NCBI RefSeq assembly: GCF_009914755.1
Contig: NC_060937.1
From: the human T2T-CHM13v2.0 reference genome, Homo sapiens
Length of the DNA: 64,000 bases
Direction: 5' to 3' (one strand)
Of this stretch, positions 1 through 64,000 are shown one piece after another. Within the stretch, counting starts at the first letter, position 1. Every line of letters starts with the position of its first letter. Both the position numbers and the translations under genes were made by a program. The notes beneath the pieces were generated by a model. That model was not told where the DNA came from. It did no database searches and was given only the letters and a program-made list of their open reading frames with translations.

Positions 1-409
1 CCATTTATAATAAACTCTACATAAAATACCAAAGTACCCAAACTGTGTATTATATACTGTCCATAAAATATCAAAGGACCCAAAATATATATTGTAAACT
101 CTACATAAAATATCAAAGTAGCCAAAATACATATTGTATACTGTACATAAAATATAAAAGTACCCCAAATATATATTATATACTGTACATAAAATATCAA
201 AGTACCCATAATACATATTATATACTGTACATAAAATATCAAAGGACCCAAAATAAACATTATATACTGTACATAAAATATCCAAATACTCAAAATATAT
301 ATTACATACTGTACATAAAATATCAAAGTACCCAAATTATGTATTATATACTGTATATAAAATATCAGAGTACCCAAAATATGCATTATATATTGTACAT
401 AAAATATGA

Positions 410-3400
410 AGGTACATCAAATATATAGTATATGCTGCACATAAAATATCAAAGTACCCAAAGTATGTATTATATACTGTACATAAAATATCAAAGTACC
501 AAAAGTATATATTACCTACTGTAAATAAAATATGAAGATACCTCAAATATATATTATATTCTGTACATAAAATATCAAAGTGCACCAAGTATATACTATA
601 TACTCTACATAAAATATTAAATTACCCAAAATATGTATTGTATTGTGTACATAAAATATGAAAGTAACCAAACATTTATAATAAACTGTACATAAAATAT
701 CAAAGTACTCAAACTTTATATTATATACTGTACATAAAGTATCAAAGTACCCAAACTGTGTAGTATATACTGTACATGAAATATCAAGGTACCCAAAATG
801 TATATTGTAAACTGTAGATAAAATATCAAAGTACCCAAAATATATATTATATACTGTACATAAAATATGAAGGCACATCCAATATATATTATATTCTGTA
901 CATAAAATATCAAAGTACACCAAATGTATATTATATACTGTACATAAAATATAAAACTACCCCAAATATATCTTATATAGTCTACATAAAATATCAAAGT
1001 ACCCAAAATATATATTATATACTGTACATAAAATATCAAAGTACCCATAGTATGTATTATATCCTGTACATAAAATATGAAGGTACATCAAATATATATT
1101 CTATTCTGCACATAAAATATCATATTGCACCAAATATATATTGTATACTGTATATAAAATATGAAGGTACTTCAAATATATATTATATGCTGCACATAAA
1201 ATATCAAAGTACCCAAAGTATGCATTATATACTGTACATAAAATATCAAAGTACCCAAAGTGTATATTATATACTGTACATAAATTATGAAGGTTCATCA
1301 AATATATTTTATATTCTGCACATAATATATCAAAGTACAGCAAATATATATTATATATTGTACATAAAATAACAAAGTACCAAAAATATGTATTATATAC
1401 TGTACATAAAATATGAAAGTAACCAAACATTTATAATAAACTGTACATAAAATATCAAAGTACTCAATCTACATATTATATACAGTATATAAAATATCAA
1501 AGTACCCAAACTATATATTATATACTGTACATACTATATCAAAGTACCCAAATATATAGCATACTGTCCATAAAATATCAAAGTACCCAAAATATATATT
1601 GTATACTGTACATAAAATATGAAGGTACATCAAAGATATATTATATCCTGTACATAAAATATCAAAGTATACCAAATATATATTATATGCTGTACATAAT
1701 ATATTAAAGTCGACCAAATATATATTATATACTGTACATAAAATATGAAGGTACCTCAACTATATATTATATGCTGCACATAAAATATCAAAGTACCCAA
1801 AGTATGTATTATATACTGTACATAAAATATCAAAGTACCCAAAGTATATATTATATACTGTACATAAAATATAAAATACCCCAAATATATATTATATGCT
1901 GTACATAAAATATCAAAGTACACAAAATATGTATTATGTACTGTACATACAATATAAAGGACCCAAAATATATACTATATACTGTACATAAAATATCAAA
2001 ATACCCAAAATATATATTATATACTGTACATAAAATACCAAAGTACCCAAAATATATATTATATACCGTACAAAAAATATCAAAGTAGCCAAAATATGTA
2101 TTATACACTGTACATAATATATGAAAGTACCCAAACATTTATAATAAACTGTACATAAAATATCAATGTACTCAAACTATGTATTATGTGCGGTACATAA
2201 CATATCAAAGTATCCATACTATATAGTATGTACTGCACTTAAAATATCAAAATACCCAAAATATATATTATATACGTTACATAAACTATCAAATACACAA
2301 AGTATGTATTATATACTGTACATAAAATAGCAAAGTTCCCAAAATATGTATTATATACTGTACATAAAATATGAAAGTACCCAACCATTTATAATAAACT
2401 CTACATAAAATACCAAAGTACCCAAACTGTGTATTATATACTGTCCATAAAATATCAAAGTACCCAAAATATATATTGCAAACTCTACAAAAAATATCAA
2501 AGTAGCCAAAATACATATTGTATACTGTACATAAAATATAAAAGTACCCCAAATATATATTATATACTGTACATAAAATATCAAAGTACCAATAATACAT
2601 ATTATATACTGTACATAAAATATCAAAGGACCCAAAATAAACATTATATACTGTACATAAAATATCCAAATACTCAAAATATATATTACATACTGTACAT
2701 AAAATATCAAAGTACCCAAATTATGTATTATATACTGTACGTAAAATATCAGAGTACCCAAAATATGCATTATATACTGTACATAAAATATGAAAGTAAC
2801 AAAACATTTATAATAAACTGTACATAAAATATCAAAGTACTCAAACTATATATCATATACTGTACATAAAATATCAAAGTACCCAAACTGTGTATTATTA
2901 TATACTGTATATAAAATATCAAAGTACCTGAAATATATATTGTATACTGTACATAAAATATCAAAGTACCCAAAATATATACTATATACTGAACATAAAA
3001 TATGAAGGTACATCAAATATATATTATATCCTGTACATAAAATATCAAAGTACACCTATTATATATTGTGTACTGTACATAATATATTAAATCGCCCAAA
3101 TATATATTGTATACTGTATATAAAATATGAAGGTACTTCAAATATATATTATATGCTGCACATAAAATATCAAAGTACCCAAAGTATGCATTACATACTG
3201 TACATAAAATATCAAAGTACACAAATTATATATTATATACTGTACATAAAATATGTAGGTTCATCAAATATATTTTATATTCTGTACATAATATATCAAA
3301 GTACATCAAATATATATTATATACGGTACATAAAATATCAAAGTACCCAAAATATGTATTATTTAATGTACATAACATATGAAAGTAACCAAACATTTAT

Positions 3401-5750
3401 AATAAACTGTACATAAAATATCAAAGTACTCAATCTACATATTATATACAGTATATAAAATATCAAAGTACACAAACTGTATATTATATACTGTACATAA
3501 TATATCAAAGTACCCAGAATATATAGCATACTGTACATACAATATCAAAGTACCCAGAATGTATATTGTATACTGTACATAAAATATGAAGGTACATCAA
3601 AGATATATTATATTCTGTACATAAAATATCAAAGTACACCAAATATATATTATATGCTGTACATAATATATTAAATTTGCCCATGCATACATTTTATACT
3701 GTACATAAAATATGAAGGTACATCAAATATATAGTATATGCTGCACATAAAATATCAAAGTACCCAAAGTATGTATTATATACTGTACATAAAATATCAA
3801 AGTACCAAAAGTATATATTACCTACTGTAAATAAAATATGAAGATACCTCAAATATATATTATATTCTGTACATAAAATATCAAAGTACACCAAGTATAT
3901 ACTATATACTCTATATAAAATATTAAATTACCCAAAATATGTATTGTATTGTGTACATAAAATATGAAAGTAACCAAACATTTATAATAAACTGTACATA
4001 AAATATCAAAGTACTCAAACTTTATATTATATACTGTACATAAAGTATCAAAGTACCCAAACTGTGTAGTATATACTGTACATAAAATATCAAGATACCC
4101 AAAATGTATATTGTAAACTGTAGATAAAATATCAAAGTACCCAAAATATATATTATATACTGTACATAAAATATGAAGGCACATCCAATATATATTATAT
4201 TCTGTACATAAAATATCAAAGTACACCAAATGTATATTATATACTGTACATAAAATATAAAACTACCCCAAATATATCTTATATACTCTACATAAAATAT
4301 CAAAGTACCCAAAATATATATTATATACTGTACATAAAATATCAAAGTACCCATAGTATGTATTATATCCTGTACATAAAATATGAAGGTACAGCAAATA
4401 TATATTCTATTCTGCACATAAAATAACATATTGCACCAAATATATATTGTATACTGTATATAAAATATGAAGGTACTTCAAATATATATTATATGCTGCA
4501 CATAAAATATCAAAGAACCCAAAGTATGCATTATATACTGTACATAAAATATCAAAGTACCCAAAGTGTATATTATATACTGTACATAAAATATGAAGGT
4601 TCATCAAATATATTTTATATTCTGCACATAATATATCAAAGTACAGCAAATATATATTATATACTGTACATAAAATAACAAAGTACCAAAAATATGTATT
4701 ATATACTGTACATAAAATATGAAAGTAACCAAATATTTATAATAAACTGTATATAAAATATCAAAGTACTCAAACTACATATTATATACAGTATATAAAA
4801 TATCAAAGTACCCAAACTATATATTATATACTGTACATACTATATCAAAGTACCCAAATATATAGCATACTGTCCATAAAATATCAAAGTACCCAAAATA
4901 TATATTGTATACTGTACATAAAATATGAAGGTACATCAAAGATATATTATATCCTGTACATAAAATATCAAAGTACACCAAATATATATTATATGCTGTA
5001 CATAATATATTAAAGTCGACCAAATATATATTATATACTGTACATAAAATATGAAGGTACCTCAACTATATATTATATGCTGCACATAAAATATCAAAGT
5101 ACCCAAAGTATGTATTATATACTGTACATAAACTATCAAAGTACCCAAAGTATATATTTTATACTGTACATAAAATATAAAATGCCCCAAATATATATTA
5201 TATGCTGTACATAAAATATCAAAGTACACAAAATATGTATTATGTACTGTACATACAATATAAAGGACCCAAAATATATACTATATACTGTACATAAAAT
5301 ATCAAAATACCCAAAATATATATTATATACTGTACATAAAATACCAAAGTACCCAAAGTATATATTATATACCGTACAAAAAATATCAAAGTAGCCAAAA
5401 TATGTATTATACACTGTACGTAATATATGAAAGTACCCAAACATTTATAATAAACTGTACATAAAATATCAATGTACTCAAACTATGTATTATGTGCGGT
5501 ACATAACATATCAAAGTACCCATACTATATAGTATGTACTGCACTTAAAATATCAAAATACCCAAAATATATATTATATACGTTACATAAACTATCAAAT
5601 ACACAAAGTATGTATTATATACTGTACATAAAATAGCAAAGTTCCCAAAATATGTATTATATACTGTACATAAAATATGAAAGTACCCAACCATTTATAA
5701 TAAACTCTACATAAAATACCAAAGTACCCAAACTGTGTATTATATACTGT
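410..5750 (+). repeat. Tandem B-type units with 3,306-bp period
   Basis: ORFs 543/3849, 1511/4817, 1934/5240 and 2289/5595 are offset by 3306. Shared private variants CATACAATATAAAGG (1-bp deletion), CATAACATATC and TACTGCACTT. Confidence 0.85.
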
Positions 5751-7284
5751 CCATAAAATATCAAAGTACCCAAAATATATATTGTAAACTGTACATAAAA
5801 TATCAAAGTAGCCAAAATACATATTGTATACTGTACATAAAATATGAAAGTACCCCAAATATGTATTATATACTGTACATAAAATATCAAAGTACCCATA
5901 ATACATATTATATACTGTACATAAAATATCAAAGGACCCAAAATAAACATTATATACTGTACATAAAATATCCAAATACTCAAAATATATATTACGTACT
6001 GTACATAAAATATCAAAGTACCCAAATTATGTATTATATACTGTACGTAAAATATCAGAGTACCCAAAATATGCATTATATACTGTACATAAAATATGAA
6101 AGTAACAATACATTTATAATAAACTGTACATAAAATATCAAAGTACTCAAACTATATATCATATACTGTACATAAAATATCAAAGTACCCAAACTGTGTA
6201 TTATTATATACTGTATATAAAATATCAAAGTACCTGAAATATATACTGTATACTGTACATAAAATATCAAAGTACCCAAAATATATACTATATACTGTAC
6301 ATAAAATATGAAGGTACATCAAATATATATTATATCCTGTACATAAAATATCAAAGTACACCTATTATATATTGTGTACTGTACATAATATATTAAATCG
6401 CCCAAATATATATTGTATACTGTATATAAAATATGAAGGTACTTCAAATATATATTATATGCTGCACATAAAATATCAAAGTACCCAAAGTATGCATTAA
6501 ACACTGTACATAAAATATCAAAGTACACATATTATCTATTATATAATGTACATAAAATATGAAGGTTCATCAAATATATATTATATTCTGTACATAATAT
6601 ATCAAAGTACATCAAATATATATTATATACTGTACATAAAATATCAAAGTACCAAAAATATGTATTATATACTGTACATAAAACATGAAAGTAACCAAAC
6701 ATTTATAATAAACTGTACATAAAATATCAAAGTACTCAATCTACATATTATATACAGTATATAAAATATCAAAGTACACAAACTGTATATTATATACTGT
6801 ACATAATATATCAAAGTACCCAGAATATATAGCATACTGTACATAAAATATCAAAGTACCCAAAATGTATATTGTATACTGTACATAAAATATGAAGGTA
6901 CATCAAAGATATATTATATTCTGTACATAAAATATCAAAGTACACCAAATATATATTATATGCTGTACATAATATATTAAAGTTGCCCATATATACATTA
7001 TATACTGTACATAAAATATGAACGTACATCAAATATATAGTATATGCTGCACATAAAATATCAAAGTACCCAAAGTATGTATTATACACTGTACATAAAA
7101 TATCAAAGTACCAAAAGTATATATTACATACTGTAAATAAAATATGAAGGTACCTCAAATATATATTATATTCTGTACATAAAATATCAAAGTACACCAA
7201 GTATATACTATATACTCTGCATAAAATATTAAATTACCCAAAATATGTATTGCATTGTGTACATAAAATATGAAAGTAACCAAA

Positions 7285-8206
7285 CATTTATAATAAACTG
7301 TACATAAAATATCAAAGTACTCAAACTGTATATTATATACTGTACATAAAGTATCAAAGTACCCAAACTGTGTAGTATATACTGTACATAAAATATCAAG
7401 GTACCCAAAATATATATTGTAAACTGTAGATAAAATATCAAAGTACCCAAAATATATATTATATACTGTACATAAAATATGAAGGCACATCCAATATATA
7501 TTATATTCTGTACATAATATATCAAAGTACACCAAATGTATATTATATACTGTACATAAAATATCAAAGTACCCAAAGTGTATATTATATACTGTACATA
7601 AACTATGAAAGTTCATCAAATATATTTTATATTCTGCACATAATATATCAAAGTACAGCAAATATATATTATATACTGTACATAAAATATCAAAGTACCC
7701 AAAATATGTATTATATACTGTACATAAAATATGAAAGTAACCAAACATTTATAATAAACTGTACATAAAATATCAAAGTACTCAAACTGTATATTATATA
7801 CTCTACATAAAGTATCAAAGTACCCAAACTGTGTAGTATATACTGTACATAAAATATCAAGGTACCCAAAATATATATTGTAAACTGTAGATAAAATATC
7901 AAAGTACCCAAAATATATATTATATACTGTACATGAAATATGAAGGCCCCTCCAATATATATTATACTCTGTACATAAAATATCAAAGTACACCAAAAGT
8001 ATATTATATACTGTACATAAAATATCAAAGTACCCAAAGTGTATATTATATACTGTACATAAACTATGAAGGTTCATCAAATATATTTTATATTCTGCAC
8101 ATAATATATCAAAGTACAGCAAATATATATTATATACTGTACATAAAATATCAAAGTACCCAAATTATGTATTATATACTGTACATAAAATATGAAAGTA
8201 AGCAAA
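7285..8206 (+). repeat. 461-bp (11-monomer) tandem duplication within an A unit
   Basis: CATTTATAATAAA at 7285, 7746 and 8207; the block AAAGTATC...TGTAGATA...GTACAGC occurs twice; marker spacing 3474 = 3013+461. Confidence 0.88.
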
Positions 8207-9730
8207 CATTTATAATAAACTGTACATAAAGTATCAAAGTACTCAAACTACATATTATATACAGTATATAAAATATCAAAGTACCCAAACTGTATATTAT
8301 ATAATGTACATAATATATCAAAGTACCCGAATATATAGCATACTCTACATAAAATATCAAAGTACCCAAAGTTTGTATTATACACTGCACATAAAATATG
8401 GAGGTACATCAAAGATATATTATATTCTGTACATAAAATATCAAAGTACACCAAATATATGTTATATGCTGTACATAATATATTAAAGTCGACCAAATAT
8501 ATATTATATACTGTACATAAAATATGAAGGTACATCAAATATATATTATATGCTGCACATAAAATATCAAAGTACCCAAAGTATGTGTTATATACTGTAC
8601 ATAAAATATCAAAGTACCCAAAGTATATATTATATACTGTACATAAAATATAAAATACCCCAAATATATATTATATGCTCTACATAAAATATCAAAGTAC
8701 ACAAAATATGTATTATATACTGTACATAAAATACCAAAGGACCCAAAATATATATTATATACTGTACATAAAATATCAAAATACCCAAAATATATATTAT
8801 ATACTGTACATAAAATACCAAAGTACCCAAAGTATATATTATATACCGTACAAAAAATATCAAAGTAGCCAAAATATGTATTATACACTGTACATAATAT
8901 ATGAAAGTACCCAAACATTTATAATAAACTGTACATAAAATATCAATGTACTCAAACTATATATTATGTGCGGTACATAAGATATCAAAGTACCCATACT
9001 ATATAGTATATACTGTACTTAAAATATCAAAATACCCAAAATATATATTATATACGTTACATAAACTATCAAATACACAAAGTATGTATTATATACTGTA
9101 CATAAAATAGCAAAGTTCCCAAAATATGTATTATATACTGTACATAAAATATGAAAGTACCCAACCATTTATAATAAAGTCTACATAAAATACCAAAGTA
9201 CCCAAACTGTGTATTATATACTGTCCATAAAATATCAAAGGACCCAAAATATATATTGTAAACTCTACATAAAATATCAAAGTAGCCAAAATACATATTG
9301 TATACTGTACATAAAATATAAAAGTACCCCAAATATATATTATATACTGTACATAAAATATCAAAGTACCCATAATACATATTATACACTGTACATAAAA
9401 TATCAAAGGACCCAAAATAAACATTATATACTGTACATAAAATATCCAAATACTCAAAATATATATTACATACTGTACATAAAATATCAAAGTACCCAAA
9501 TTATGTATTATACACTGTACGTAAAATATCAGAGTACCCAAAATATGCATTATATACTGTACATAAAATATGAAAGTAACAAAACATTTATAATAAACTG
9601 TACATAAAATATCAAAGTACTCAAACTATATATCATATACTCTACATAAAATATCAAAGTACCCAAACTGTGTATTATTATATACTGTATATAAAATATC
9701 AAAGTACCTGAAATATATACTGTATACTGT

Positions 9731-11313
9731 ACATAAAATATCAAAGTACCCAAAATATATACTATATACTGTACATAAAATATGAAGGTACATCAAATAT
9801 ATATTATATCCTGTACATAAAATATCAAAGTACACCTATTATATATTGTGTACTGTACATAATATATTAAATCGCCCAAATATATATTGTATACTGTATA
9901 TAAAATATGAAGGTACTTCAAATATATATTATATGCTGCACATAAAATATCAAAGTACCCAAAGTATGCATTACATACTGTACATAAAATATCAAAGTAC
10001 ACATATTATCTATTATATAATGTACATAAAATATGAAGGTTCATCAAATATATATTATATTCTGTACATAATATATCAAAGTACATCAAATATATATTAT
10101 ATACTGTACATAAAATATCAAAGTACCAAAAATATGTATTATATACTGTACATAAAACATGAAAGTAACCAAACATTTATAATAAACTGTACATAAAATA
10201 TCAAAGTACTCAATCTACATATTATATACAGTATATAAAATATCAAAGTACACAAACTGTATATTATATACGGTACATAATATATCAAAGTACCCAGAAT
10301 ATATAGCATACTGTAAATAAAATATCAAAGTACCCAAAATATATATTGTATACTGTACATAAAATATGAAGGTACATCAAAGATATATTATATTCTGTAC
10401 ATAAAATATCAAACTACACCAAATATATATTATATGCTGTACATAATATATTAAAGTTGCCCATATATACATTATATACTGTACATAAAATATGAACGTA
10501 CATCAAATATATAGTATATGCTGCACATAAAATATCAAAGTACCCAAAATATATACTATATACTGTACATAAAATATGAAGGTACATCAAATATATATTA
10601 TATCCTGTACATAAAATATCAAAGTACACCTATTATATATTGTGTACTGCACATAATATATTAAATCGCCCAAATATATATTGTATACTGTATATAAAAT
10701 ATGAAGGTACTTCAAATATATATTATATGCTGCACATAAAATATCAAAGTACCCAAAGTATGCATTACATACTGTACATAAAATATCAAATTAAAAAAAT
10801 TATATATTATATTCTGTACATAAAATATGTAGGTTCTTCAAATATATTTTATATTCTGTACATAATATATCAAAGTACATCAAATATATATTATATACGG
10901 TACATAAAATATCAAAGTACCCAAAATATGTATTAATTACTGTGCATAAAATATGAAAGTAACCAAACACTTATAATAAACTGTACATAAAATATCAAAC
11001 TACTCAATCTACATATTATATACAGTATATAAAATATCAAAGTACACAAACTGTATATTATATACTGTACATAATATATCAAAGTACCCAGAATATATAG
11101 CATACTGTACATACAATATCAAAGTACCCAGAATGTATATTGTATTCTGTACATAAAATATGAATGTACATCAAAGATATATTCTGTACATAAAATATCA
11201 AAGTACACCAAATATATATTATATGCTGTACATAATATATTAAAGTTGCCCATGCATACATTTTATACTGTACATAAAATATGAAGGTACATCAAATATA
11301 TAGTATATGCTGC
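9731..11313 (+). repeat. 794-bp (19-monomer) tandem duplication, A-type copy followed by B-type copy
   Basis: TACACCTATT at 9831 and 10625; junction inside ACATAAAATATCAAAGTACCCAAA at 10525-10548; the second copy has a 5-bp deletion near 11180. Confidence 0.85.
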
Positions 11314-41814: not shown

Positions 41815-42056
41815 CAAATATATATTATATCCTGTACATAAAATATCAAAGTACCCAAAATATATATTGTAAATTGTACATAAAATATCAAAGTAGCCAA
41901 AATATATATTGTATACTGTACATAAAATATGAAGGTACATCAAATATATATTATATCCTGTACATAAAATATCAAAGTACCCAAAATATATATTGTAAAT
42001 TGTACATAAAATATCAAAGTAGCCAAAATATATATTGTATACTGTACATAAAATAT
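41815..42056 (+). repeat. 126-bp-period (3-monomer) local duplication
   Basis: 41815-41930 and 41941-42056 read identically, including the private GTAAATTGTAC variant, and are separated by GAAGGTACAT. Confidence 0.85.
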
Positions 42057-46977: not shown

Positions 46978-49900
46978 GTGCGGTACTTAAGATATCAAAG
47001 TACCCATACTATATAGTATGTACTGTACTTAAAATATCAAAATACCCAAAATATATATTATATACGTTACATAAACTATCAAATACACAAAGTATGTATT
47101 ACATACTGTACATAAAATAGCAAAGTTCCCAAAATATGTATTATATACTGTACATAAAATATGAAAGTACCCAACCATTTATAATAAACTCTACATAAAA
47201 TACCAAAGTACCCAAACTGTGTATTATATACTCTCCATAAAATATCAAAGTACCCAAAATATATATTGTCAACTGTACATGAAATATCAAAGTAGCCAAA
47301 ATATATATAGTATACCGTACATAAAATATAAAAGTACCCCAAATATGTATTATATACTGTACATAAAATATCAAAGTACCGATAATACATATTATATACT
47401 GTACATAAAATATCAGAGGACCCAAAATAAACATTATATACTGTACATAAAATATCCAAATACTCACAATATATATTACATACTGTACATAAAATATCAA
47501 AGTACCCAAATTATGTATTATATACTGTACATAAAATATCAGAGTACCCAAAATATGCATTATATACTGTACATAAAATATGAAAGTAACAAAACATTTA
47601 TAATAAACTGTACATAAAATATCAAAGTACTCAAACTATATATCATATACTGTACATAAAATATCAAAGTACCCAAACTGTGTATTATTATATACTGTAT
47701 ATAAAATATCAAAGTACCTGAAATATATACTGTATACTGTACATAAAATATCAAAGTACCCAAAATATATACTATATACTGTACATAAAATATGAAGGTA
47801 CATCAAATATATATTATATCCTGTACATAAAATATCAAAGTACACCTATTATATATTGTGTACTGTACATAATATATTAAATCGCCCAAATATATATTGT
47901 ATACTGTATAAAAAATATGAAGGTACTTCAAATATATATTATATGCTGCACATAAAATATCAAAGTACCCAAAGTATGCATTACATACTGTACATAAAAT
48001 ATCAAAGTACACATATTATCTATTATATAATGTACATAAAATATGAAGGTTCATCAAATATATATTATATTCTGTACATAATATATCAAAGTACATCAAA
48101 TATATATTATATACTGTACATAAAATATCAAAGTACCAAAAATATGTATTATATACTGTACATAAAACATGAAAGTAACCAAACATTTATAATAAACTGT
48201 ACATAAAATATCAAAGTACTCAATCTACATATTATATACAGTATATAAAATATCAAAGTACACAAACTGTATATTATATACTGTACATAATATATCAAAG
48301 TACCCAGAATATATAGCATACTGTACTTAAAATATCAAAGTACCCAAAATATATATTGTATACTGTACATAAAATATGAAGGTACATCAAAGATATATTA
48401 TATTCTGTACATAAAATATCAAAGTACACCAAATATATATTATATGCTGTACATAATATATTAAAGTTGCCCATATATACATTATATACTGTACATAAAA
48501 TATGAACGTACATCAAATATATAGTATATGCTGCACATAAAATATCAAAGTACCCAAAGTATGTATTATACACTGTACATAAAATATCAAAGTACCAAAA
48601 GTATATATTACATACTGTAAATAAAATATGAAGGTACCTCAAATATATATTATATTCTGTACATAAAATATCAAAGTACACCAAGTATATACTATATACT
48701 CTGCATAAAATATTAAATTACCCAAAATATGTATTGCATTGTGTACATAAAATATGAAAGTAACCAAACATTTATAATAAACTGTACATAAAATATCAAA
48801 GTACTCAAACTGTATATTATATACTGTACATAAAGTATCAAAGTACCCAAACTGTGTAGTATATACTGTACATTAAATATCAAGGTACCCAAAATATATA
48901 TTGTAAACTGTAGATAAAATATCAAAGTACCCAAAATATATATTATATACTGTACATAAAATATGAAGGCACATCCAATATATACTATATTCTGTACATA
49001 AAATATCAAAGTACACCAAATGTATATTATATACTGTACAAAAAATATCAAAGTACCCAAAGTGTATATTATATACTGTACATAAAATATGAAGGTTCAT
49101 CAAATATATTTTATATTCTGCACATAATATATCAAAGTACAGCAAATATATATTATATACTGTACATAAAATATCAAAGTACCCAATATATGTATTATAT
49201 ACTGTACATAAAATATGAAAGTAACCAAACATTTATAATAAACTGTACATAAAGTATCAAAGTACTCAAACTACATATTATATACAGTATATAAAATGTC
49301 AAAGTACCCAAACTGTATATTATATACTGTACATAATATATCAAAGTACCCGAATATATAGCATACTGTACATAAAATATCAAGGTACCCAAAGTGTGTA
49401 TTATACACTGCACATAAAATATGAAGGTACATAAAATATATATTGTATTCTGTACATAAAATATCAAAGTACTCCAAATATATATTATATGCTGTACATA
49501 ATATATTAAAGTCGCCCAAATATATATTATATACTGTACATAAAATATGAAGGTACATCAAATATATATTATATGCTGCACATAAAATATCAAAGTACCC
49601 AAAGTATGTGTTATATACTGTACATAAAATATCAAAGTACGCAAAGTATATATTATATACTGTACATAAAATATAAAATACCCCAAATATATATTATATG
49701 CTGTACATAAAATATCAAAGTACACAAAATATGTATTATATACTGTACATAAAATACCAAAGGACCCAAAATATATATTATATACTGTACATAAAATATC
49801 AAAATACCCAAAATATATATTATATACTGTACATAAAATACCAAAGTACCCAAAGTATATATTATATACCGTACAAAAAATATCAAAGTAGCCAAAATAT

Positions 49901-49990
49901 GTATTATACACTGTACATAATATATGAAAGTACCCAAACATTTATAATAAACTGTACATAAAATATCAATGTACTCAAACTATATATTAT
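46978..49990 (+). repeat. Representative higher-order unit type A: 72 monomers, 3,013 bp
   Basis: GTGCGG marker spacings of 3013 (35803-38816, 46978-49991, 53308-56321), 3012 (27428-30440, 59638-62650) and 3011 (32792-35803). 72x42=3024 minus 11, accounted for by six 41-bp CATTTATAATAAA monomers (-6), a 39-mer (-3), a 40-mer (-2), three other 41-mers (-3) and one 45-mer with TATTATTATA (+3). Confidence 0.92.
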
Positions 49991-52900: not shown

Positions 52901-53307
52901 AAAATATCAAAGAACCCAAAGTATGTATTATATACTGTACATAAAATATCAAAGTACCCAAAGTATATATTATATACTGTACATAAAATATAAAATACCC
53001 CAAATATATATTATATGCTGTACATAAAATATCAAAGTACACAAAATATGCATTATGTACTGTACATAAATTATCAAAGGACCCAAAATATATATTATAT
53101 AGTGTACATAAAATATCAAAATACCCAAAATATATATTATATACTGTACATAAAATACCAAAGTACCCAAAGTATATATTATATACTGTATAAAAAATAT
53201 CAAAGTAGCCAAAATATGTATTATACACTGTACATAATATATGAAAGTACCCAAACATTTATAATAAACTGTACATAAAATATCAATGTACTCAAACTAT
53301 ATATTAT
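49991..53307 (+). repeat. Representative higher-order unit type B: 79 monomers, 3,317 bp (A + 294-bp cassette + 10-bp insertion)
   Basis: Marker spacings of 3317 at 15534-18851, 49991-53308 and 56321-59638, and 3306 at 2188-5494 (no 10-bp insert, 1-bp deletion). B-diagnostic variants: ATGTAGGTTC, CATACAATATC, ATTACCTACTG, CTCAAACTTTA. Confidence 0.9.
52053..52346 (+). repeat. B-specific 7-monomer (294-bp) cassette; further copies start at about 934, 4240, 11809, 17596, 26174, 40867, 45723, 58383
   Basis: Monomers with AAAACTACCCC, CCCATAGTATG and TCATATTGCACC lie between the ACACCAAATGT and CCCAAAGTGTA monomers, which are directly adjacent in A units. Confidence 0.88.
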
Positions 53308-56300
53308 GTGCGGTACTTAAGATATCAAAGTACCCATACTATATAGTATGTACTGTACTTAAAATATCAAAATACCCAAAATATATATTATATACGTTAC
53401 ATAAACTATCAAATACACAAAGTATGTATTACATACTGTACATAAAATAGCAAAGTTCCCAAAATATGTATTATATACTGTACATAAAATATGAAAGTAC
53501 CCAACCATTTATAATAACCTCTACATAAAATACCAAAGTACCCAAACTGTGTATTATATACTCTCCATAAAATATCAAAGTACCCAAAATATATATTGTC
53601 AACTGTACATAAAATATCAAAGTAGCCAAAATATATATAGTATACCGTACATAAAATATAAAAGTACCCCAAATATGTATTATATACTGTACATAAAATA
53701 TCAAAGTACCGATAATACATATTATATAGTGTACATAAAATATCAGAGGACCCAAAATAAACATTATATACTGTACATAAAATATCCAAATACTCAAAAT
53801 ATATATTACATACTGTACATAAAATATCAAAGTACCCAAATTATGTATTATATACTGTACATAAAATATCAGAGTACCCAAAATATGCATTATATACTGT
53901 ACATAAAATATGAAAGTAACAAAACATTTATAATAAACTGTACATAAAATATCAAAGTACTCAAACTATATATCATATACTGTACATAAAATATCAAAGT
54001 ACCCAAACTGTGTATTATTACATACTGTATATAAAATATCAAAGTACCTGAAATATATACTGTATACTGTACATAAAATATCAAAGTACCCAAAATATAT
54101 GCTATATACTGTACATAAAATATGAAGGTACATCAAATATATATTATATCCTGTACATAAAATATCAAAGTACACCTATTATATATTGTGTACTGTACAT
54201 AATATATTAAATCGCCCAAATATATATTGTATACTGTATAAAAAATATGAAGGTACTTCAAATATATATTATATGCTGCACATAAAATATCAAAGTACCC
54301 AAAGTATGCATTACATACTGTACATAAAATATCAAAGTACACATATTATCTATTATATAATGTACATAAAATATGAAGGTTCATCAAATATATATTATAT
54401 TCTGTACATAATATATCAAAGTACATCAAATATATATTATATACTGTACATAAAATATCAAAGTACCAAAAATATGTATTATATACTGTACATAAAACAT
54501 GAAAGTAACCAAACATTTATAATAAACTGTACATAAAATATCAAAGTACTCAATCTACATATTATATACAGTATATAAAATATCAAAGTACACAAACTGT
54601 ATATTATATACTGTACATAATATATCAAAGTACCCAGAATATATAGCATACTGTACTTAAAATATCAAAGTACCCAAAATATATATTGTATACTGTACAT
54701 AAAATATGAAGGTACATCAAAGATATATTATATTCTGTACATAAAATATCAAAGTACACCAAATATATATTATATGCTGTACATAATATATTAAAGTTGC
54801 CCATATATACATTATATACTGTACATAAAATATGAACGTACATCAAATATATAGTATATGCTGCACATAAAATATCAAAGTACCCAAAGTATGTATTATA
54901 CACTGTACATAAAATATCAAAGTACCAAAAGTATATATTACATACTGTAAATAAAATATGAAGGTACCTCAAATATATATTATATTCTGTACATAAAATA
55001 TCAAAGTACACCAAGTATATACTATATACTCTGCATAAAATATTAAATTACCCAAAATATGTATTGCATTGTGTACATAAAATATGAAAGTAACCAAACA
55101 TTTATAATAAACTGTACATAAAATATCAAAGTACTCAAACTGTATATTATATACTGTACATAAAGTATCAAAGTACCCAAACTGTGTAGTATATACTGTA
55201 CATTAAATATCAAGGTACCCAAAATATATATTGTAAACTGTAGATAAAATATCAAAGTACCCAAAATATATATTATATACTGTACATAAAATATGAAGGC
55301 ACATCCAATATATACTATATTCTGTACATAAAATATCAAAGTACACCAAATGTATATTATATACTGTACAAAAAATATCAAAGTACCCAAAGTGTATATT
55401 ATATACTGTACATAAAATATGAAGGTTCATCAAATATATTTTATATTCTGCACATAGTATATCAAACTACAGCAAATATATATTATATACTGTACATAAA
55501 ATATCAAAGTACCCAAAATATGTATTATATACTGTACATAAAATATGAAAGTAACCAAACATTTATAATAAACTGTACATAAAGTATCAAAGTACTCAAA
55601 CTACATATTATATACAGTATATAAAATGTCAAAGTACCCAAACTGTATATTATATACTGTACATAATATATCAAAGTACCCGAATATATAGCATACTGTA
55701 CATAAAATATCAAGGTACCCAAAGTGTGTATTATACACTGCACATAAAATATGAAGGTACATAAAATATATATTGTATTCTGTACATAAAATATCAAAGT
55801 ACTCCAAATATATATTATATGCTGTACATAATATATTATAGTCGCCCAAATATATATTATATACTGTACATAAAATATGAAGCTATATCAAATATATATT
55901 ATATGCTGCACATAAAATATCAAAGTACCCAAAGTATGTGTTATATACTGTACATAAAATATCAAAGTACCCAATGTATATATTATATACTGTACATAAA
56001 ATATAAAATACCCCAAATATATATTATATGCTGTACATAAAATATCAAAGTACACAAAATATGTATTATATACTGTACATAAAATACCAAAGGACCCAAA
56101 ATATATATTATATACTGTACATAAAATATCAAAATACCCAAAATATATATTATATACTGTACATAAAATACCAAAGTACCCAAAGTATATATTATATACC
56201 GTACAAAAAATATCAAAGTAGCCAAAATATGTATTATACACTGTACATAATATATGAAAGTACCCAAACATTTATAATAAACTGTACATAAAATATCAAT

Positions 56301-59300
56301 GTACTCAAACTATATATTATGTGCGGTACATAAGATATCAAAGTACCCATACTATATAGTATATACTGTACTTAAAATATCAAAATACCCAAAATATATA
56401 TTATATACGTTACATAAACTATCAAATACACAAAGTATGTATTATATACTGTACATAAAATAGAAAAGTTCCCAAAATATGTATTATATATATTATAAAT
56501 ATGTACATAAAATATGAAAGTACCCAACCATTTATAATAAACTCTACATAAAACAACAAAGTACCCAAACTGTGTATTATATACTGTCCATAAAATATCA
56601 AAGTACCCAAAATATATATTGTAAACTCTACATAAAATATAAAAGTAGCCAAAATACATATTGTATACTGTACATAAAATATAAAGGTACCCCAAATATA
56701 TATTATATACTGTACATAAAATATCAAAGTACCCATAATACATATTATATACTGTACATAAAATATCAAAGGACCCAAAATAAACATTATATACTGTACA
56801 TAAAATATCCAAATACTCAAAATATATATTACATACTGTACATAAAATATCAAAGTACCCAAATTATGTACTATATACTGTACGTAAAATATCAGAGTAC
56901 CCAAAATATGCATTATATACTGTACATAAAATATGAAAGTAACAAAACATTTATAATAAACTGTACATAAAATATCAAAGTACTCAAACTATATATCATA
57001 TACTGTACATAAAATATCAAAGTACCCAAACTGTGTATTATTATATACTGTATATAAAATATCAAAGTACCTGAAATATATATTGTATACTGTACATAAA
57101 ATATCAAAGTACACAAAATATGTACTATATACTGTACATAAAATATGAAGGTACATCAAATATATATTATATCCTGTACATAAAATATCAAAGTACACCT
57201 ATTATATATTGTGTACTGTACATAATATATTAAATCGCCCAAATATATATTGTATACTGTATATAAAATATGAAGGTACTTCAAATATATATTATATGCT
57301 GCACATAAAATATCAAAGTACCCAAGGTATGCATTACATACTGTACATAAAATATCAAAGTACACAAATTATATATTATATACTGTACATAAAATATGTA
57401 GGTTCATCAAGTATATTTTATATTCTGTACATAATATATCAAAGTACATCAAATATATATTATATACGGTACATAAAATATCAAATTACCCAAAATATAT
57501 ATTATTTACTGTACATAAAATATGAAAGTAACCAAACATTTATAATAAACTGTACATAAATTATCAAAGTACTCAATCTACATATTATATACGGTATATA
57601 AAATATCAAAGTACACAAACTCTATATTATATACTGTACATAATATGTCAAAGTACCCAGAATATATAGCATACTGTACATACAATATCAAAGTACCCAG
57701 AATGTATATTGTATAATGTACATAAAATATGAAGGTACATCAAAGATATATTATATTCTGTACATAAAATATCAAAGTACACCAAATATATATTATATGC
57801 TGTACATAATATATTAAAGTTGCCCATGTATACATTTTATACTGTACATAAAATATGAAGGTACATCAAATATATAGTATATGCTGCACATAAAATATCA
57901 AAGTACCCAAAGTATGTATTATATACTGTACATAAAATATCAAAGTACCAAAAGTATATATTACCTACTGTAAATAAAATATGAAGATACCTCAAATATA
58001 TATTATATTCTGTACATGAAATATCAAAGTACACCAAGTATATACTATATACTCTACATAAAATATTAAATTACCCAAAATATGTATTGTATTGTGTACA
58101 TAAAATATGAAAATAACCAAACATTTATAATAAACTGTACATAAAATATCAAAGTACTCAAACTTTATATTATATACTGTACATAAAGTATCAAAGTACC
58201 CAAACTGTGTAGTATATACTGTACATAAAATATCAAGGTACCCAAAATGTATATTGTAAACTGTAGATAAAATATCAAAGTACCCAAAATATATATTATA
58301 TACTGTACATAAAATATGAAGGCACATCCAATATATATTATATTCTGTACATAAAATATCAAAGTACACCAAATGTATATTATATACTGTACATAAAATA
58401 TAAAACTACCCCAAATATATCTTATATACTCTACATAAAATATCTAAGTACCCAAAATATATATTATATACTGTACATAATATATCAAAGTACCCATAGT
58501 ATGTATTATATCCTGTACATAAAATATGAAAGTACGTCAAATATATATTCTATTCTGCACATAAAATATCATATTGCACCAAATATATATTGTATACTGT
58601 ATATAAAATATGAAGGTACTTCAAATATATATTATATGCTGCACATAAAATATCAAAGTACCCAAAGTATGCATTATATACTGTACATAAAATATCAAAG
58701 TACCCAAAGTGTATATTATATACTGTACATAAAATATGAAGGTTCATCAAATATATTTTATATTCTGCACATAATATATCAAAGTACAGCAAATATATAT
58801 TATATACTGTACATAAAATAACAAAGTAACAAAAATATGTATTATATACTGTACATAAAATATGAAAGTAACCAAATATTTATAATAAACTGTATATAAA
58901 ATATCAAAGAACTCAAACTACATATTATATACAGTATATAAAATATCAAAGTACCCAAACTATATATTATATACTGTACATACTATATCAAAGTACCCGA
59001 ATATATAGCATACTGTACATAAAATATCAAATTACCCAAAATATATATTGTATACTGTACATAAAATATGAAGGTACATCAAAGATATATTATATTCTGT
59101 ACATAAAATATCAAAGTACACCAAATATATATTATATCCTGTACAGAATATATTAAAGTCGACCAAATGTATATTATATACTGTACATAAAATATGAAGG
59201 TACATCAAATATATATTATATGCTGCACATAAAATATCAAAGTACCCAAAGTATGTGTTATATACTGTACATAAAATATCAAAGTACCCAAAGTATATAT

Positions 59301-62300
59301 TATATACTGTACATAAAATATAAAATACCCCAAATATATATTATATGCTGTACATAAAATATCAAAGTACACAAAATATGCATTATGTACTGTACATAAA
59401 TTATCAAAGGACCCAAAATATATATTATATAGTGTACATAAAATATCAAAATACCCAAAATATATATTATATACTGTACATAAAATACCAAAGTACCCAA
59501 AGTATATATTATATACTGTATAAAAAATATCAAAGTAGCCAAAATATGTATTATACACTGTACATAATATATGAAAGTACCCAAACATTTATAATAAACT
59601 GTACATAAAATATCAATGTACTCAAACTATATATTATGTGCGGTACTTAAGATATCAAAGTACCCATACTATATAGTATGTACTGTACTTAAAATATCAA
59701 AATACCCAAAATATATATTATATACGTTACATAAACTATCAAATACACAAAGTATGTATTACATACTGTACATAAAATAGCAAAGTTCCCAAAATATGTA
59801 TTATATACTGTACATAAAATATGAAAGTACCCAACCATTTATAATAAACTCTACATAAAATACCAAAGTACCCAAACTGTGTATTATATACTCTCCATAA
59901 AATATCAAAGTACCCAAAATATATATTGTCAACTGTACATGAAATATCAAAGTAGCCAAAATATATATAGTATACCGTACATAAAATATAAAAGTACCCC
60001 AAATATGTATTATATACTGTACATAAAATATCAAAGTACCGATAATACATATTATATAGTGTACATAAAATATCAGAGGACCCAAAATAAACATTATATA
60101 CTGTACATAAAATATCCAAATACTCAAAATATATATTACATACTATACATAAAATATCAAAGTACCCAAATTATGTATTATATACTGTACATAAAATATC
60201 AGAGTACCCAAAATATGCATTATATACTGTACATAAAATATGAAAGTAACAAAACATTTATAATAAACTGTACATAAAATATCAAAGTACTCAAACTATA
60301 TATCATATACTGTACATAAAATATCAAAGTACCCAAACTGTGTATTATTATATACTGTATATAAAATATCAAAATACCTGAAATATATACTGTATACTGT
60401 ACATAAAATATCAAAGTACCCAAAATATATACTGTATACTGTACATAAAATATGAAGGTACATCAAATATATATTGTATCCTGTACATAAAATATCAAAG
60501 TACACCTATTATATATTGTGTACTGTACATAATATATTAAATCGCCCAAATATATATTGTATACTGTATATAAAATATGAAGTTACTTCAAATATATATT
60601 ATATGCTGCACATAAAATATCAAAGTACCCAAAGTATGCATTACATACTGTACATAAAATATCAAAGTACCCAAAGTGTATATTATATACTGTACATAAA
60701 ATATGAAGGTTCATCAAATATATTTTATATTCTGCACAAAATATATCAAAGTACAGCAAATATATATTATATACTGTACATAAAATAACAAAGTACCAAA
60801 AACATGTATTATATACTGTACATAAAATATGAAAGTAACCAAATATTTATGATAAACTGTATATGAAATATCAAAGTACTCAAACTACATATTATATACA
60901 GTATATAAAATATCAAAGTACCCAAACTGTATATTATATACTGTACATACTATATCAAAGTACCCGAATATATAGCATACTGTACATAAAATATCAAAGT
61001 ACCCAAAATATATATTGTATACTGTACATAAAATATGAAGGTACATCTAAGATATATTATATTCTGTACATAAAATATCAAATTACACCAAATATATATT
61101 ATATGCTGTACATAATATATTAAAGTCGACCAAATATATATTATATACTGTACATAAAATATGAAGATACATCAAATATATATTATATGCTGCACATAAA
61201 ATATCAAAGTACCCAAAGTATGTATTATACACTGTACATAAAATATCAAAGTACCAAAAGTATATATTACATACTGTAAATAAAATATGAAGGTACCTCA
61301 AATATATATTATATTCTGTACATAAAATATCAAAGTACACCAAGTATATACTATATACTCTGCATAAAATATTAAATTACCCAAAATATGTATTGTATTG
61401 TGTACATAAAATATGAAAGTAACCAAACATTTATAATAAACTGTACATAAAATATCAAAGTACTCAAACTGTATATTATATACTGTACATAAAATATCAA
61501 AGTACCCAAACTGTGTAGTATATACTGTACATAAAATATCAAGGTACCCAAAATATATATTGTAAACTGTAGATAAAATATCAAAATACCCAAACTATAT
61601 ATTATATACTGTACATAAAATATGAAGGCACATCAAATATATATTATATTCTGTACATAAAATATCAAAATACACCAAATGTATATTATATACTGTACAT
61701 AAAATATCAAAGTACCCAAAGTGTATATTATATACTGTACATAAAATATGAAGGTTCATCAAACATATTTTATATTCTGCACATAATATATCAAAGTACA
61801 GCAAATATATATTATATACTGTACATAAAATATCAAAGTACCCAGAATATGTATTATATACTGTACATAAAATATGAAAGTAAGCCAACATTTGTAATAA
61901 AATGTACATAAAGTAACAAAGTACTCAAACTACATATTATATACAGTATATAAAATGTCAAAGTACCCAAACTGTATATTATATACTGTACATAATATAT
62001 CAAAGTACCCGAATATATAGCATACTGTACATAAAATATCAAAGTACCCAAAGTGTGTATTATACACTGCACATAAAATATGAAGGTACATAAAATATAT
62101 ATTGTATTCTGTACATAAAATATCAAAGTACTCCAAATATATATTATATGCTGTACATAATATATTAAAGTCGCCCAAATATATATTATATACTGTACAT
62201 AAAATATGAAGGTACATCAAATATATATTATATGCTGCACATAAAATATCAAAGTACCCAAAGTATGTGTTATATACTGTACATAAAATATCAAAGTACC

Positions 62301-64000
62301 CAAAGTATATATTATATACTGTACATAAAATATAAAATACCCCAAATATATATTATATGCTCTACATAAAATATCAAAGTACACAAAATATGTATTATAT
62401 ACTGTACATAAAATACCAAAGGACCCAAAATATATATTATATACTGTACATAAAATATCAAAATACCCAAAATATATATTATATACTGTACATAAAATAC
62501 CAAAGTACCCAAAGTATATATTATATACCGTACAAAAAATATCAAAGTAGCCAAAATATGTATTATACACTGTACATAATATATGAAAGTACCCAAACAT
62601 TTATAATAAACTGTACATAAAATATCAATGTACTCAAACTATATATTATGTGCGGTACATAAGATATCAAAGTACCCATACTATATAGTATATACTGTAC
62701 TTAAAATATCAAAATACCCAAAATATATATTATATACGTTACATAAACTATCAAATACACAAAGTATGTATTATATACTGTACATAAAGTAGCAAAGTTC
62801 CCAAAATATGTATTACATACTGTACATAAAATATGAAAGTACCCAACCATTTATAATAAACTCTACATAAAATACCAAAGTACCCAAACTGTGTATTATA
62901 TACTGTCCATAAAATATAAAAGTACCCAAAATATATATTGTAAACTCTACATAAAATATCAAAGTAGCCAAAATACATATTGTATACTGTACATAAAATA
63001 TAAAAGTACCCCAAATATATATTATATACTGTACATAAAATATCAAAGTACCCATAATACATATTATATACTGTACATAAAATATCAAAGGACCCAAAAT
63101 AAACATTATATACTGTACATAAAATATCCAAATACTCAAAATATATATTACATACTGTACATAAAATATCAAAGTACCCAAATTATGTATTATATACTGT
63201 ACGTAAAATATCAGAGTACCCAAAATATGCGTTATATACTGTACATAAAATATGAAAGTAACAAAACATTTATAATAAACTGTACATAAAATATCAAAGT
63301 ACTCAAACTATATATCATATACTGTACATAAAATATCAAAGTACCCAAACTGTGTATTACTACATACTGTATATAAAATATCAAAATACCTGAAATATAT
63401 ATTTTATACTGTACATAAAATATCAAAGTACCCAAAATATATACTATATACTGTACATAAAATATGAAGGTACATCAAATATACATTATATCCTGTACAT
63501 AAAATATCAAAGTACTCCTATTATATATTGTGTACTGTACATAATATATTAAATCGCCCAAATATATATTGTATACTGTATATAAAATATGAAGGTACTT
63601 CAAATATATATTATATGCTGCACATAAAATATCAAAGTACCCAAAGTATGCATTACATACTGTACATAAAATATCAAAGTACACAAATTATATATTATAT
63701 TCTGTACATAAAATATGTAGGTTCATCAAATATATTTTATATTCTGTACATAATATATCAAAGTACATCAAATATATATTATATACGGTACATAAAATAT
63801 CAAAGTACCCAAAATATGTACTATTTACTGTACCTAAAATATGAAAGTAACCAAACTTTTATAATAAACTGTACATAAAATATCAAAGTACTCAATCTAC
63901 ATATTATATACAGTATATAAAATATGAAAGTACACAAACTGTATATTATATACTGTACATAATATATCAAAGTACCCAGAATATATAGCATACTGTACAT

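What the first reader, a model, noticed from the sequence alone, without database searches (positions are those of the whole stretch)
1..64000. Most monomers encode a perfect Pumilio response element on one strand: a potential NORAD-like PUM mega-sponge
Seen: the + strand monomer core reads TGTACATA (e.g. 184-191), and several recurrent variants change only the degenerate base (TGTATATA, TGTAAATA, TGTAGATA). My hand count in unit 46978-49990 found about 19 of 72 monomers lacking it, so about three quarters are intact. Extrapolated, that is on the order of 1,100 sites in this window at 42-nt spacing. The - strand reads TGTACAGT and lacks the element. Established: UGUANAUA is the PUM1/PUM2 binding consensus, and the lncRNA NORAD uses roughly 15-20 such sites to sequester and condense PUM proteins and protect chromosome segregation; HSat1A transcription has been reported. 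Inference: a 1-kb A-rich-strand transcript would carry about as many PREs as NORAD, so satellite de-repression could titrate or phase-separate PUM. I know of no description of this. Caveats: PUM is mostly cytoplasmic while satellite RNA is often nuclear, and an AT-rich 8-mer in the founder monomer is amplified for free.
Basis: partly seen in the sequence, partly recalled or inferred. Interest (0 to 1): 0.8.

Follow-up and report, generated by a model that had tools for sequence, protein, structure and literature searches.

The report
Pumilio motif inside ordinary HSat1A satellite
The window is a known human 42-bp satellite whose repeat unit happens to spell a strong Pumilio-binding motif on its A-rich strand, so there are over a thousand copies, but nothing found here shows that the motif is maintained or used.

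Summary
The window is one uninterrupted HSat1A (formerly SAR) array: 42-bp period, about 1528 copies. TGTANATA occurs 1110 times on the + strand and 49 times on the - strand. It sits in register in 1106 of 1528 monomers, with a median of 17 per kb.

The motif belongs to the family consensus. It is present in 56-76% of monomers in clean HSat1A samples from chr3, chr4 and elsewhere on chr13. About 1.6e5 sites with the satellite's 3' context exist genome-wide.

No test gave a sign of selection:
- The motif window is never the best-kept window: rank 3 to 12 of 42.
- Recent substitutions hit the seven fixed positions as often as other positions in three arrays (p 0.94, 0.93, 1.0).
- The free fifth base is not consistently more variable.

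Predicted folding partly buries the site. Published HSat1A RNA is nuclear, short and polyadenylated. The published forward primer shows it is of the motif-bearing sense. I found no paper linking Pumilio to HSat1.

Verdict: a known satellite with a motif amplified for free. The sponge idea is untested and cheap to test; I put it at about 6%.

The parts
6..63987 (+). HSat1A (SAR) satellite array. It has a 42-bp monomer and about 1528 copies, with the A-rich strand on + throughout. It is organised in higher-order repeats of about 3.0-3.6 kb.
   Evidence: TRF. Base composition A 29638, T 19964, C 9237, G 5161. Best local self-match lags are 3306, 3011-3013, 3307, 3474 and 3557 at up to 99.9% identity.
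184..191 (+). Example of the in-register TGTACATA 8-mer (consensus columns 11-18). It is one of 1110 + strand TGTANATA sites in the window.
46978..49990 (+). 52 of its 72 monomers carry the motif.
1477..1484 (-). Example of the rare - strand matches (49 in all, 45 of them TGTATATA). They arise from + strand TATATACA variants.

Best explanation
The window is an ordinary stretch of the large chr13 HSat1A (SAR) pericentromeric satellite. Its 42-bp founder monomer happens to contain UGUACAUA on the A-rich strand, and array amplification copied that 8-mer about 1100 times here and about 1.6e5 times genome-wide. The motif persists in 56-76% of monomers because it lies in the slowly diverging half of the monomer (columns 10-24), not because it is itself maintained. 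Any A-rich-strand transcript would carry genuine high-affinity Pumilio consensus sites. Purified PUM homology domain would very probably bind it when it is unfolded (inference). A physiological NORAD-like sponge role is not indicated by anything measurable here.
For: Shown by the sequence and tool results:
- There is a single 42-bp array.
- The motif is in the consensus of every clean HSat1A sample: chr13 window, chr3, chr4 main, chr4 edge, chr13 distal and chr13 at 13.9/15.3 Mb.
- In-register fractions are 56-58% on chr3 (5 of 5 loci), 61-74% on chr4 (5 of 5) and 59-76% at four other chr13 loci.
- Genome-wide, TGTANATAAAATAT has 161,896 matches against 2,232 for the reversed control.

Tests of maintenance:
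- Ranked by intactness among all 42 windows of 8 with the 5th position free, the motif window is 3rd (chr13), 12th (chr3), 7th and 8th (chr4) and 11th (chr13 distal). It always falls behind windows starting at columns 14, 16, 17 or 21.
- For substitutions that arose within groups of near-identical higher-order-repeat orthologues, events per position at the 7 fixed positions versus other positions are 7.71 vs 7.91 (chr13), 5.14 vs 5.32 (chr3) and 3.14 vs 3.21 (chr4). The binomial p values are 0.94, 0.93 and 1.0. A/T-only comparisons also show no difference (other thresholds).
- The G of UGUA, needed for binding (recalled), is among the most mutated positions: 17 events in chr13.
- The free position N5 has 5, 12 and 2 events, so it is not consistently higher.

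Chance and other motifs:
- A founder motif arises by chance in 3.3% to 21% of shuffles.
- Other recalled protein motifs are amplified in the same way: ATCAAAG 784 times on +, TTTTAT 1244 times on -.
Against: - The seven fixed positions average about 0.95 identity to the consensus, against 0.887 for the whole monomer, so the motif lies in a conserved block. Some constraint on that block, at DNA or RNA level, is not excluded.
- The exact 8-mer is an experimentally used strong PRE.
- The motif-bearing strand is the one recovered by 3' RACE in HeLa.
- HSAT1A arrays show the highest RNA:DNA read ratio among centromeric repeat classes in a ChAR-seq preprint, with more RNA reads in K562 (PMC12157442, passages).
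- My recent-substitution test has limited power (328, 229 and 133 events). It also cannot separate selection from gene conversion.
Confidence: 0.85

Rival explanations
1. NORAD-like sponge. When HSat1A is de-repressed, A-rich-strand transcripts bind many PUM1/PUM2 molecules. They titrate or condense them and so raise the level of PUM target mRNAs, many of which act in chromosome segregation.
For: - There are a median of 17 consensus sites per kb, 7 per 400 nt and 3 per 170 nt, against 17 sites in the whole of NORAD.
- UGUACAUA is a validated strong PRE.
- Tichon et al. estimate about 1200 NORAD sites and about 750 PUM molecules per U2OS cell. By my arithmetic, roughly 70 kb of A-rich HSat1A RNA per cell would match NORAD's capacity.
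- RNA of the A-rich sense exists in HeLa.
- Expression varies strongly between cancer lines (review PMC10505914, passages).
- Nuclear RNA would meet cytoplasmic PUM after nuclear envelope breakdown in mitosis (inference).
Against: - RNA-FISH shows consistent nuclear, perinucleolar foci, whereas NORAD is 94% cytoplasmic.
- RACE products are short, 51 to about 400 nt. This fits the 245 canonical poly(A) hexamers on the + strand, about one per 260 nt, and it limits valency.
- The predicted cost of opening the 8-mer averages 3.4 kcal/mol, with a median probability of being unpaired of 0.005 (n=33). That is worse than random 8-mers in the same RNAs (2.8 kcal/mol, n=90, Mann-Whitney p=0.02).
- There is no signature of selection on the motif.
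- The ENCODE eCLIP overview lists CDS as the dominant class for PUM1 and 3'UTR for PUM2 in K562, and its main text never uses the word 'satellite' (PMC7137325, passages). This is weak evidence, since the reference then lacked most HSat1A.
- Orangutan short arms lack HSat1A (preprint 10.64898/2025.12.22.696095, passages), so any role would be recent.
Confidence: 0.06
2. Reverse direction: HSat1A RNA is a PUM substrate, not a PUM regulator. Polyadenylated A-rich-strand fragments that reach the cytoplasm are recognised through their PREs. They are then deadenylated and degraded by the PUM/CCR4-NOT route, which keeps satellite RNA out of the cytoplasm.
For: - The sequence facts are the same as for the sponge idea.
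- PUM acts through deadenylation complexes and mRNA decay (PMC4947167, passage).
- HSat1A RNA is seen only in the nucleus, as expected if cytoplasmic copies are short-lived (inference).
Against: There are no data on HSat1A RNA export or half-life. Exclusive nuclear signal is equally explained by simple retention. There is no selection signature on the motif. This is pure inference.
Confidence: 0.05
3. The conserved block ACATAAAATATCAAAGTAC (columns 14-32), which overlaps the 3' part of the motif, is constrained at the DNA level. The constraint would come from an AT-hook or HMG-box type protein or from nucleosome or scaffold attachment. The UGUA part is then a passenger.
For: - The best-kept windows start at columns 14, 16, 17 and 21 in every array, not at 11.
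- ATCAAAG, which I recall as the TCF/LEF HMG-box core, is present 784 times on +.
Against: Recent substitutions are not clearly depleted in that block once base identity is considered. The protein assignments are recalled and not tested. Uneven divergence may simply reflect old monomer subtypes.
Confidence: 0.04

Closest known systems
HSat1A (RepeatMasker/Dfam SAR), classical human satellite I 42-bp repeat
   Same: It has a 42-bp AT-rich monomer and lies in the chr13 pericentromeric array. Higher-order periods of 3013, 3474 and 6330 bp are seen here and are listed for HSat1A in Lopes et al. 2023. The published HSat1A primer matches exactly 12 times.
   Different: Nothing differs. This is a member.
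NORAD lncRNA (PUM1/PUM2 decoy)
   Same: It has many consensus Pumilio elements on one RNA strand, with the site count per kb equal to NORAD's total.
   Different: - NORAD is a single conserved gene. It has 12 units of about 300 nt, each with PREs plus stem-loops and a U-rich tract. It is abundant and 94% cytoplasmic, and its PREs are conserved across mammals and CLIP-verified.
- HSat1A is a 42-nt satellite absent from orangutan short arms.
- Its RNA is nuclear and short.
- Its motif shows no specific conservation.
- No CLIP evidence for it is known.
HSat3 / HSat2 satellite RNAs that sequester RNA-binding proteins in nuclear stress bodies and CAST bodies
   Same: Tandem-repeat RNA offers many copies of one short protein-binding motif. 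Induction is condition-dependent (review PMC10505914).
   Different: Those cases have demonstrated protein partners and nuclear bodies.
PLCXD1 3' region with 18 PREs lying mostly in transposable elements
   Same: This is a precedent for high PRE counts created by repeated DNA rather than by selection for PUM binding (PMC4947167, passage).
   Different: That is a single gene with interspersed repeats, not a megabase satellite.

Membership tests
HSat1A / SAR satellite | Tandem 42-bp AT-rich monomer | tested here: met
   TRF gives period 42, 1528 copies and 80% matches. A+T is 77.5% by base counts.
HSat1A / SAR satellite | Higher-order periodicities reported for HSat1A (3013, 3474, 6330 bp) | tested here: met
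   Self-match lags 3011-3013, 3474 and 6330 are found. The list is quoted in Lopes 2023.
HSat1A / SAR satellite | Same monomer in the chr3, chr4 and chr13 arrays | tested here: met
   Array consensuses are identical in columns 1-32 in all six groups. Identity to the consensus is 0.85-0.89 in the clean loci.
Pumilio response element (PRE) | 8-nt match to UGUANAUA on the RNA strand | tested here: met
   1110 + strand matches, of which 1011 are UGUACAUA. UGUACAUA is used as the strong PRE in reporters.
Pumilio response element (PRE) | Site single-stranded and accessible in the RNA | tested here: inconclusive
   The ViennaRNA median probability that the 8-mer is unpaired is 0.005 (n=33), lower than for random 8-mers (0.014, n=90, p=0.02). 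The fold is no more stable than shuffles (z -1.31), and in-cell structure is unknown.
Pumilio response element (PRE) | Occupied by PUM1/PUM2 in cells (CLIP) | not testable with these tools
   No read data are available. No paper was found.
NORAD-like PUM decoy RNA | Many PREs per transcript | tested here: met
   Median 17 per kb, 7 per 400 nt and 3 per 170 nt.
NORAD-like PUM decoy RNA | PREs conserved above their flanks | tested here: not met
   The motif window ranks 3 to 12 of 42. The recent substitution rate equals that of other positions in three arrays.
NORAD-like PUM decoy RNA | Abundant, stable, cytoplasmic transcript of the PRE-bearing strand | not testable with these tools
   From the literature only. 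The sense strand is detected, but the RNA is nuclear and 51-400 nt long. NORAD is 94% cytoplasmic.
NORAD-like PUM decoy RNA | Perturbation shifts PUM target mRNAs in a PRE-dependent way | not testable with these tools
   An experiment is needed.
Any curated RNA family (Rfam 15) | Match at gathering score | tested here: not met
   0 matches over the whole window on both strands.

The most novel reading that the evidence does not exclude
A-rich-strand HSat1A RNA, carrying about 17 strong Pumilio elements per kb out of about 1.6e5 encoded genome-wide, is a condition-dependent multivalent PUM1/PUM2 ligand. In cells that de-repress HSat1A (lines such as H1299, HeLa, MDA-MB-231 and K562 are reported to express it), the nuclear pool would meet cytoplasmic PUM at nuclear envelope breakdown. 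It would transiently titrate or condense PUM, linking satellite de-repression to mis-regulation of segregation genes. The mirror-image reading, in which PUM clears leaked satellite RNA, is also not excluded.
Probability: 0.07. Interest if true: 0.75.

Novelty: already known. Interest (0 to 1): 0.3.

Why it matters
If the sponge idea were right, a 13-Mb class of human 'junk' satellite would gain a defined molecular output. Satellite de-repression in cancer would then connect to the PUM/NORAD genome-stability axis.

As it stands, the value is narrower. The note that HSat1A's A-rich strand spells the reporter-grade PRE in most monomers seems not to be in print, according to five searches of the held library. 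Existing PUM eCLIP and PAR-CLIP data re-read against T2T-CHM13 could settle binding in an afternoon.

It is also a caution for CLIP and motif-enrichment work on complete genomes. About 1.6e5 identical consensus sites in one repeat family can distort motif statistics if multimapping reads are kept.

Tried and rejected
Selection and constraint tests:
- Selection on the motif was tested in two ways in up to six array samples, and no signal was found.
Identity to consensus at N5 is 0.90 in chr13, only just below UGU at 0.92-0.93. In chr3, N5 (0.92) is better kept than positions 1, 7 and 8. Recent events at N5 number 5, 12 and 2. The pattern is inconsistent, so it was rejected as evidence.

Structure:
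- The first script (RNAplfold-style) gave no answer. An exhaustive constraint scan timed out. Smaller versions ran.
- The 210-nt fold is not more stable than shuffles, so no specific structure is claimed.
- Rfam gave 0 hits.

'Satellite I ncRNA' of Ideue and Tani (chromosome segregation, Aurora B, RBMX, DHX38): I considered this as support. Their own review describes these as transcripts 'from the alpha-satellite' (PMC7151564, passages). I cannot equate them with HSat1A, and the original papers are not held, so I set it aside.

Literature:
- HSat1A + Pumilio: 0 papers.
- PUM2 + eCLIP + satellite + repetitive elements: 0.
- eCLIP + CHM13 + satellite + RNA-binding protein: 1 paper, unrelated.
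- Pumilio + 'satellite RNA': 29 papers, 15 listed. I opened two of these, and both cite only NORAD.
- A six-term search needing 2 of 6 terms: 86 papers, 15 listed, none joining Pumilio with HSat1.
- PUM1 + PUM2 + CLIP + 'satellite repeats': 0.
- TGTACATA + satellite: 0.
- Lee 2016, Elguindy and Mendell 2021, and the journal version of Hoyt 2022 are not held. The Hoyt preprint does not mention HSat1 or SAR.

Other points:
- Three sampled loci (L024, L025, L028) are not HSat1A and three (L019, L022, L023) are mixed. All six were left out of the array comparison. L014, L018, L020, L021, L026 and L027 were used but not.
- Supplements of bioRxiv preprints (ChAR-seq, ape acrocentrics) could not be seen. 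They may hold per-array or per-strand numbers.
Full report
**What is there.** The whole window is one tandem array with a 42-bp period. It runs from 6 to 63987 with 1528 copies and 80% matches, and its consensus is TATTATATACTGTACATAAAATATCAAAGTACCCAAAATATA. The + strand is A-rich throughout (A 29638, T 19964, C 9237, G 5161). Monomers are arranged in higher-order repeats whose local periods are 3011-3013, 3306-3307, 3474 and 3557 bp, with up to 99.9% identity between neighbouring units and a 6330-bp signal. These periods, the 42-bp unit and the chr13 location identify it as HSat1A, formerly SAR. Lopes et al. 2023 list 3013, 3474 and 6330 bp for HSat1A (PMC9909926, passages). A review places a 5-Mb HSat1 array on chr13 and gives 13.4 Mb of HSat1A in T2T-CHM13 (PMC10505914, passages). 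The Altemose preprint gives the SAR to HSat1A renaming. Rfam has no match at gathering score.

**The observation.**
- TGTANATA occurs 1159 times on both strands, against 300.8 +/- 18.3 in dinucleotide shuffles.
- There are 1110 on the + strand (1011 TGTACATA, 57 TGTATATA, 23 TGTAAATA, 19 TGTAGATA) and 49 on the - strand.
- Wrap-around alignment to the consensus puts the motif at columns 11-18. It is intact in 1106 of 1528 complete monomers.
- Density is 13-21 per kb, median 17. The median is 3 per 170 nt and 7 per 400 nt.

**Is it more than chance?** The excess over shuffles of the whole window only says that the motif lies in the repeat unit. The relevant question is how likely a 42-mer of this make-up is to contain the motif at all. 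The answer is 3.3% of mononucleotide shuffles and 21% of dinucleotide-preserving shuffles of the consensus, counting either strand. Given the many known RNA-binding-protein motifs, one perfect hit in an AT-rich founder is unremarkable. As illustration, using motifs recalled from memory, the + strand also carries ATCAAAG 784 times and the - strand TTTTAT 1244 times. The monomers are also not independent: 392 distinct aligned sequences (259 with the motif) and 58 clusters of 5 or more members (41 with it).

**It is a family property.** The window's own assembly could be searched. The motif with the satellite's six following bases (TGTANATAAAATAT) has 133,168 forward and 28,728 reverse matches, against 2,232 for the reversed control. 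The tool states that such counts are lower bounds. I fetched twenty 10-kb samples.
- In-register motif fractions are 56-58% in five chr3 loci, 61-74% in five chr4 loci and 59-76% in four other clean chr13 loci.
- Three loci are mixed (25-41%) and three are not HSat1A.
- All six array groups share the same consensus in columns 1-32, including the motif.

**Is the motif maintained?** I ran two tests.

The first is standing divergence. For every one of the 42 possible windows of eight with the fifth position free, I took the fraction of monomers matching the array's own consensus. The motif window ranks 3rd in the chr13 window and at 13.9/15.3 Mb, 12th on chr3, 7th and 8th on chr4, and 11th in distal chr13. 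It always falls behind windows starting at columns 14, 16, 17 or 21. The conserved block is ACATAAAATATCAAAGTAC, and the UGU lies at its edge.

The second is recent change. I grouped monomers whose three-monomer context differs by at most 4 of 126 positions, which makes them higher-order-repeat orthologues. I then counted each distinct minority base once.
- Events per position at the seven fixed motif positions versus the 34 other positions are 7.71 vs 7.91 (chr13 window, 328 events), 5.14 vs 5.32 (chr3, 229 events) and 3.14 vs 3.21 (chr4, 133 events). The binomial p values are 0.94, 0.93 and 1.0.
- A/T-only comparisons give p = 0.66, 0.84 and 0.89.
- Looser grouping gives p = 0.45 and 0.28.
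- The G of UGUA is one of the most mutated positions (17 events in chr13). So are the other G and C positions.
- The free fifth base is not consistently more variable: 5, 12 and 2 events, with identity 0.90, 0.92 and 0.93.

The limits are modest event counts and confounding by gene conversion.

**Would the RNA present the site?**
- A 210-nt + strand RNA folds to -33.1 kcal/mol, no better than shuffles (z = -1.31). There is therefore no specific structure.
- Generic AU/GU pairing involves the motif. Per-base unpaired probability is 0.08-0.09 at the G, U and A of UGUA, against a background of 0.44.
- The probability that the whole 8-mer is open has a median of 0.005 (n=33, mean opening cost 3.4 kcal/mol). 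For random 8-mers in the same RNAs it is 0.014 (n=90, 2.8 kcal/mol; Mann-Whitney p=0.02).

At face value this weakens apparent affinity by two orders of magnitude. In-cell structure of AU-rich RNA is uncertain, so I score this as inconclusive.

**What is published.**
- UGUACAUA is exactly the element used three times as the 'strong PRE' reporter. NORAD has 17 PREs at about 70 copies per U2OS cell and is 94% cytoplasmic. PUM1 is estimated at about 200 and PUM2 at about 550 copies per cell (PMC4947167, passages).
- HSat1A RNA shows 'consistent nuclear localization' in clusters next to nucleoli (PMC9909926, section 7 read whole).
- Oligo-dT 3' RACE in HeLa gives products of 51 to about 400 nt in steps of 42 (section 8 read whole).
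- The paper does not state the strand. Its forward primer F1 (supplement) matches the window only on the + strand: 37 of 37 matches at up to 3 mismatches, 12 of them exact. If F1 was the 'HSat1A forward primer' used for RACE, the RNA detected is of the motif-bearing sense. Only that sense was assayed.
- The + strand has 162 AATAAA and 83 ATTAAA, against 1 and 1 on the - strand. That is about one canonical poly(A) hexamer per 260 nt, which fits the short products and limits valency.
- A runs of 8 or more are absent and runs of 6 or more number 29. Internal priming is therefore not obviously the explanation, though it is not excluded.
- A ChAR-seq preprint reports the highest RNA:DNA read ratio for HSAT1A arrays, with more HSAT1A RNA in K562 (PMC12157442, passages).
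- The ENCODE eCLIP overview lists CDS as the top class for PUM1 and 3'UTR for PUM2 in K562, and does not use the word 'satellite' (PMC7137325, passages).
- Orangutan short arms lack HSat1A (preprint, passages).
- No paper in the held library joins Pumilio with HSat1.

**Explanation.** The best-supported reading, at about 85%, is that this is ordinary HSat1A in which a founder 8-mer was amplified for free. Binding of purified PUM to unfolded A-rich-strand RNA is very likely, by inference from the reporter element. A physiological sponge role is not indicated. The RNA is in the wrong compartment and the transcripts are short. The sites are partly buried, and they show no maintenance. I put the sponge at about 6%, the reverse reading (PUM clears leaked satellite RNA) at about 5%, and a DNA-level constraint on the neighbouring block at about 4%.

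**Comparison and novelty.** It is a member of HSat1A, with all tested features met. It resembles NORAD only in site count. The defining NORAD features are either not met (conservation of PREs above their flanks) or untestable here (CLIP occupancy, cytoplasmic abundance, effect on targets). The satellite is already known. The remark that its A-rich strand spells a reporter-grade PRE appears unpublished in the library searched. It is cheap to test with existing CLIP data, hence a modest interest score.

Noticed in passing
window 1-64000, + strand versus - strand: Canonical poly(A) hexamers are strongly strand-asymmetric. AATAAA occurs 162 times and ATTAAA 83 times on the A-rich strand, against 1 and 1 on the T-rich strand. 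That is about one per 260 nt. It could explain the short polyadenylated HSat1A RACE ladder published for HeLa.
   Followed up: partly
window, consensus columns 14-32: The best-kept part of the monomer in every array sampled is ACATAAAATATCAAAGTAC, not the Pumilio 8-mer. It contains ATCAAAG (784 copies on +), which I recall as an HMG-box (TCF/LEF) core. The protein link was not tested.
   Followed up: partly
window, - strand: The T-rich strand carries TTTTAT 1244 times. I recall this as a cytoplasmic-polyadenylation-element-like hexamer. It shows that either strand offers an array of some protein motif for free.
   Followed up: no
window 1-64000: Higher-order repeat length changes along the window: 3306, 3474, 3557, 3011-3013, 2261 and 3307 bp, with adjacent-unit identity from about 0.6 to 0.9985. 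This points to local expansions and unequal exchange within the array.
   Followed up: partly
L009-L013 (G000:C3:92.6-94.2 Mb) and L020-L021 (G000:C13:0.70 and 4.73 Mb): The chr3 array and two distal chr13 pieces share a consensus variant (columns 33-37 ACCAA instead of CCAAA) and the same minor 8-mers (GGTACATA, TGTACAAA, TGTACATG). This suggests they are one subfamily, distinct from the main chr13 array and from chr4.
   Followed up: no
window, consensus positions 10, 12, 25, 29: C and G positions take far more recent substitutions than A/T positions, for example 25 events at G29 and 17 at G12 against about 6-7 at A/T. This is consistent with a GC-to-AT mutation bias in this very AT-rich satellite.
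   Followed up: partly
literature, PMC7151564: The 'satellite I ncRNA' of Ideue and Tani, needed for chromosome segregation, is described in their own review as coming from alpha-satellite. Its relation to the 42-bp HSat1A is unclear from what I could read. It is worth checking in the original papers, which are not held.
   Followed up: no
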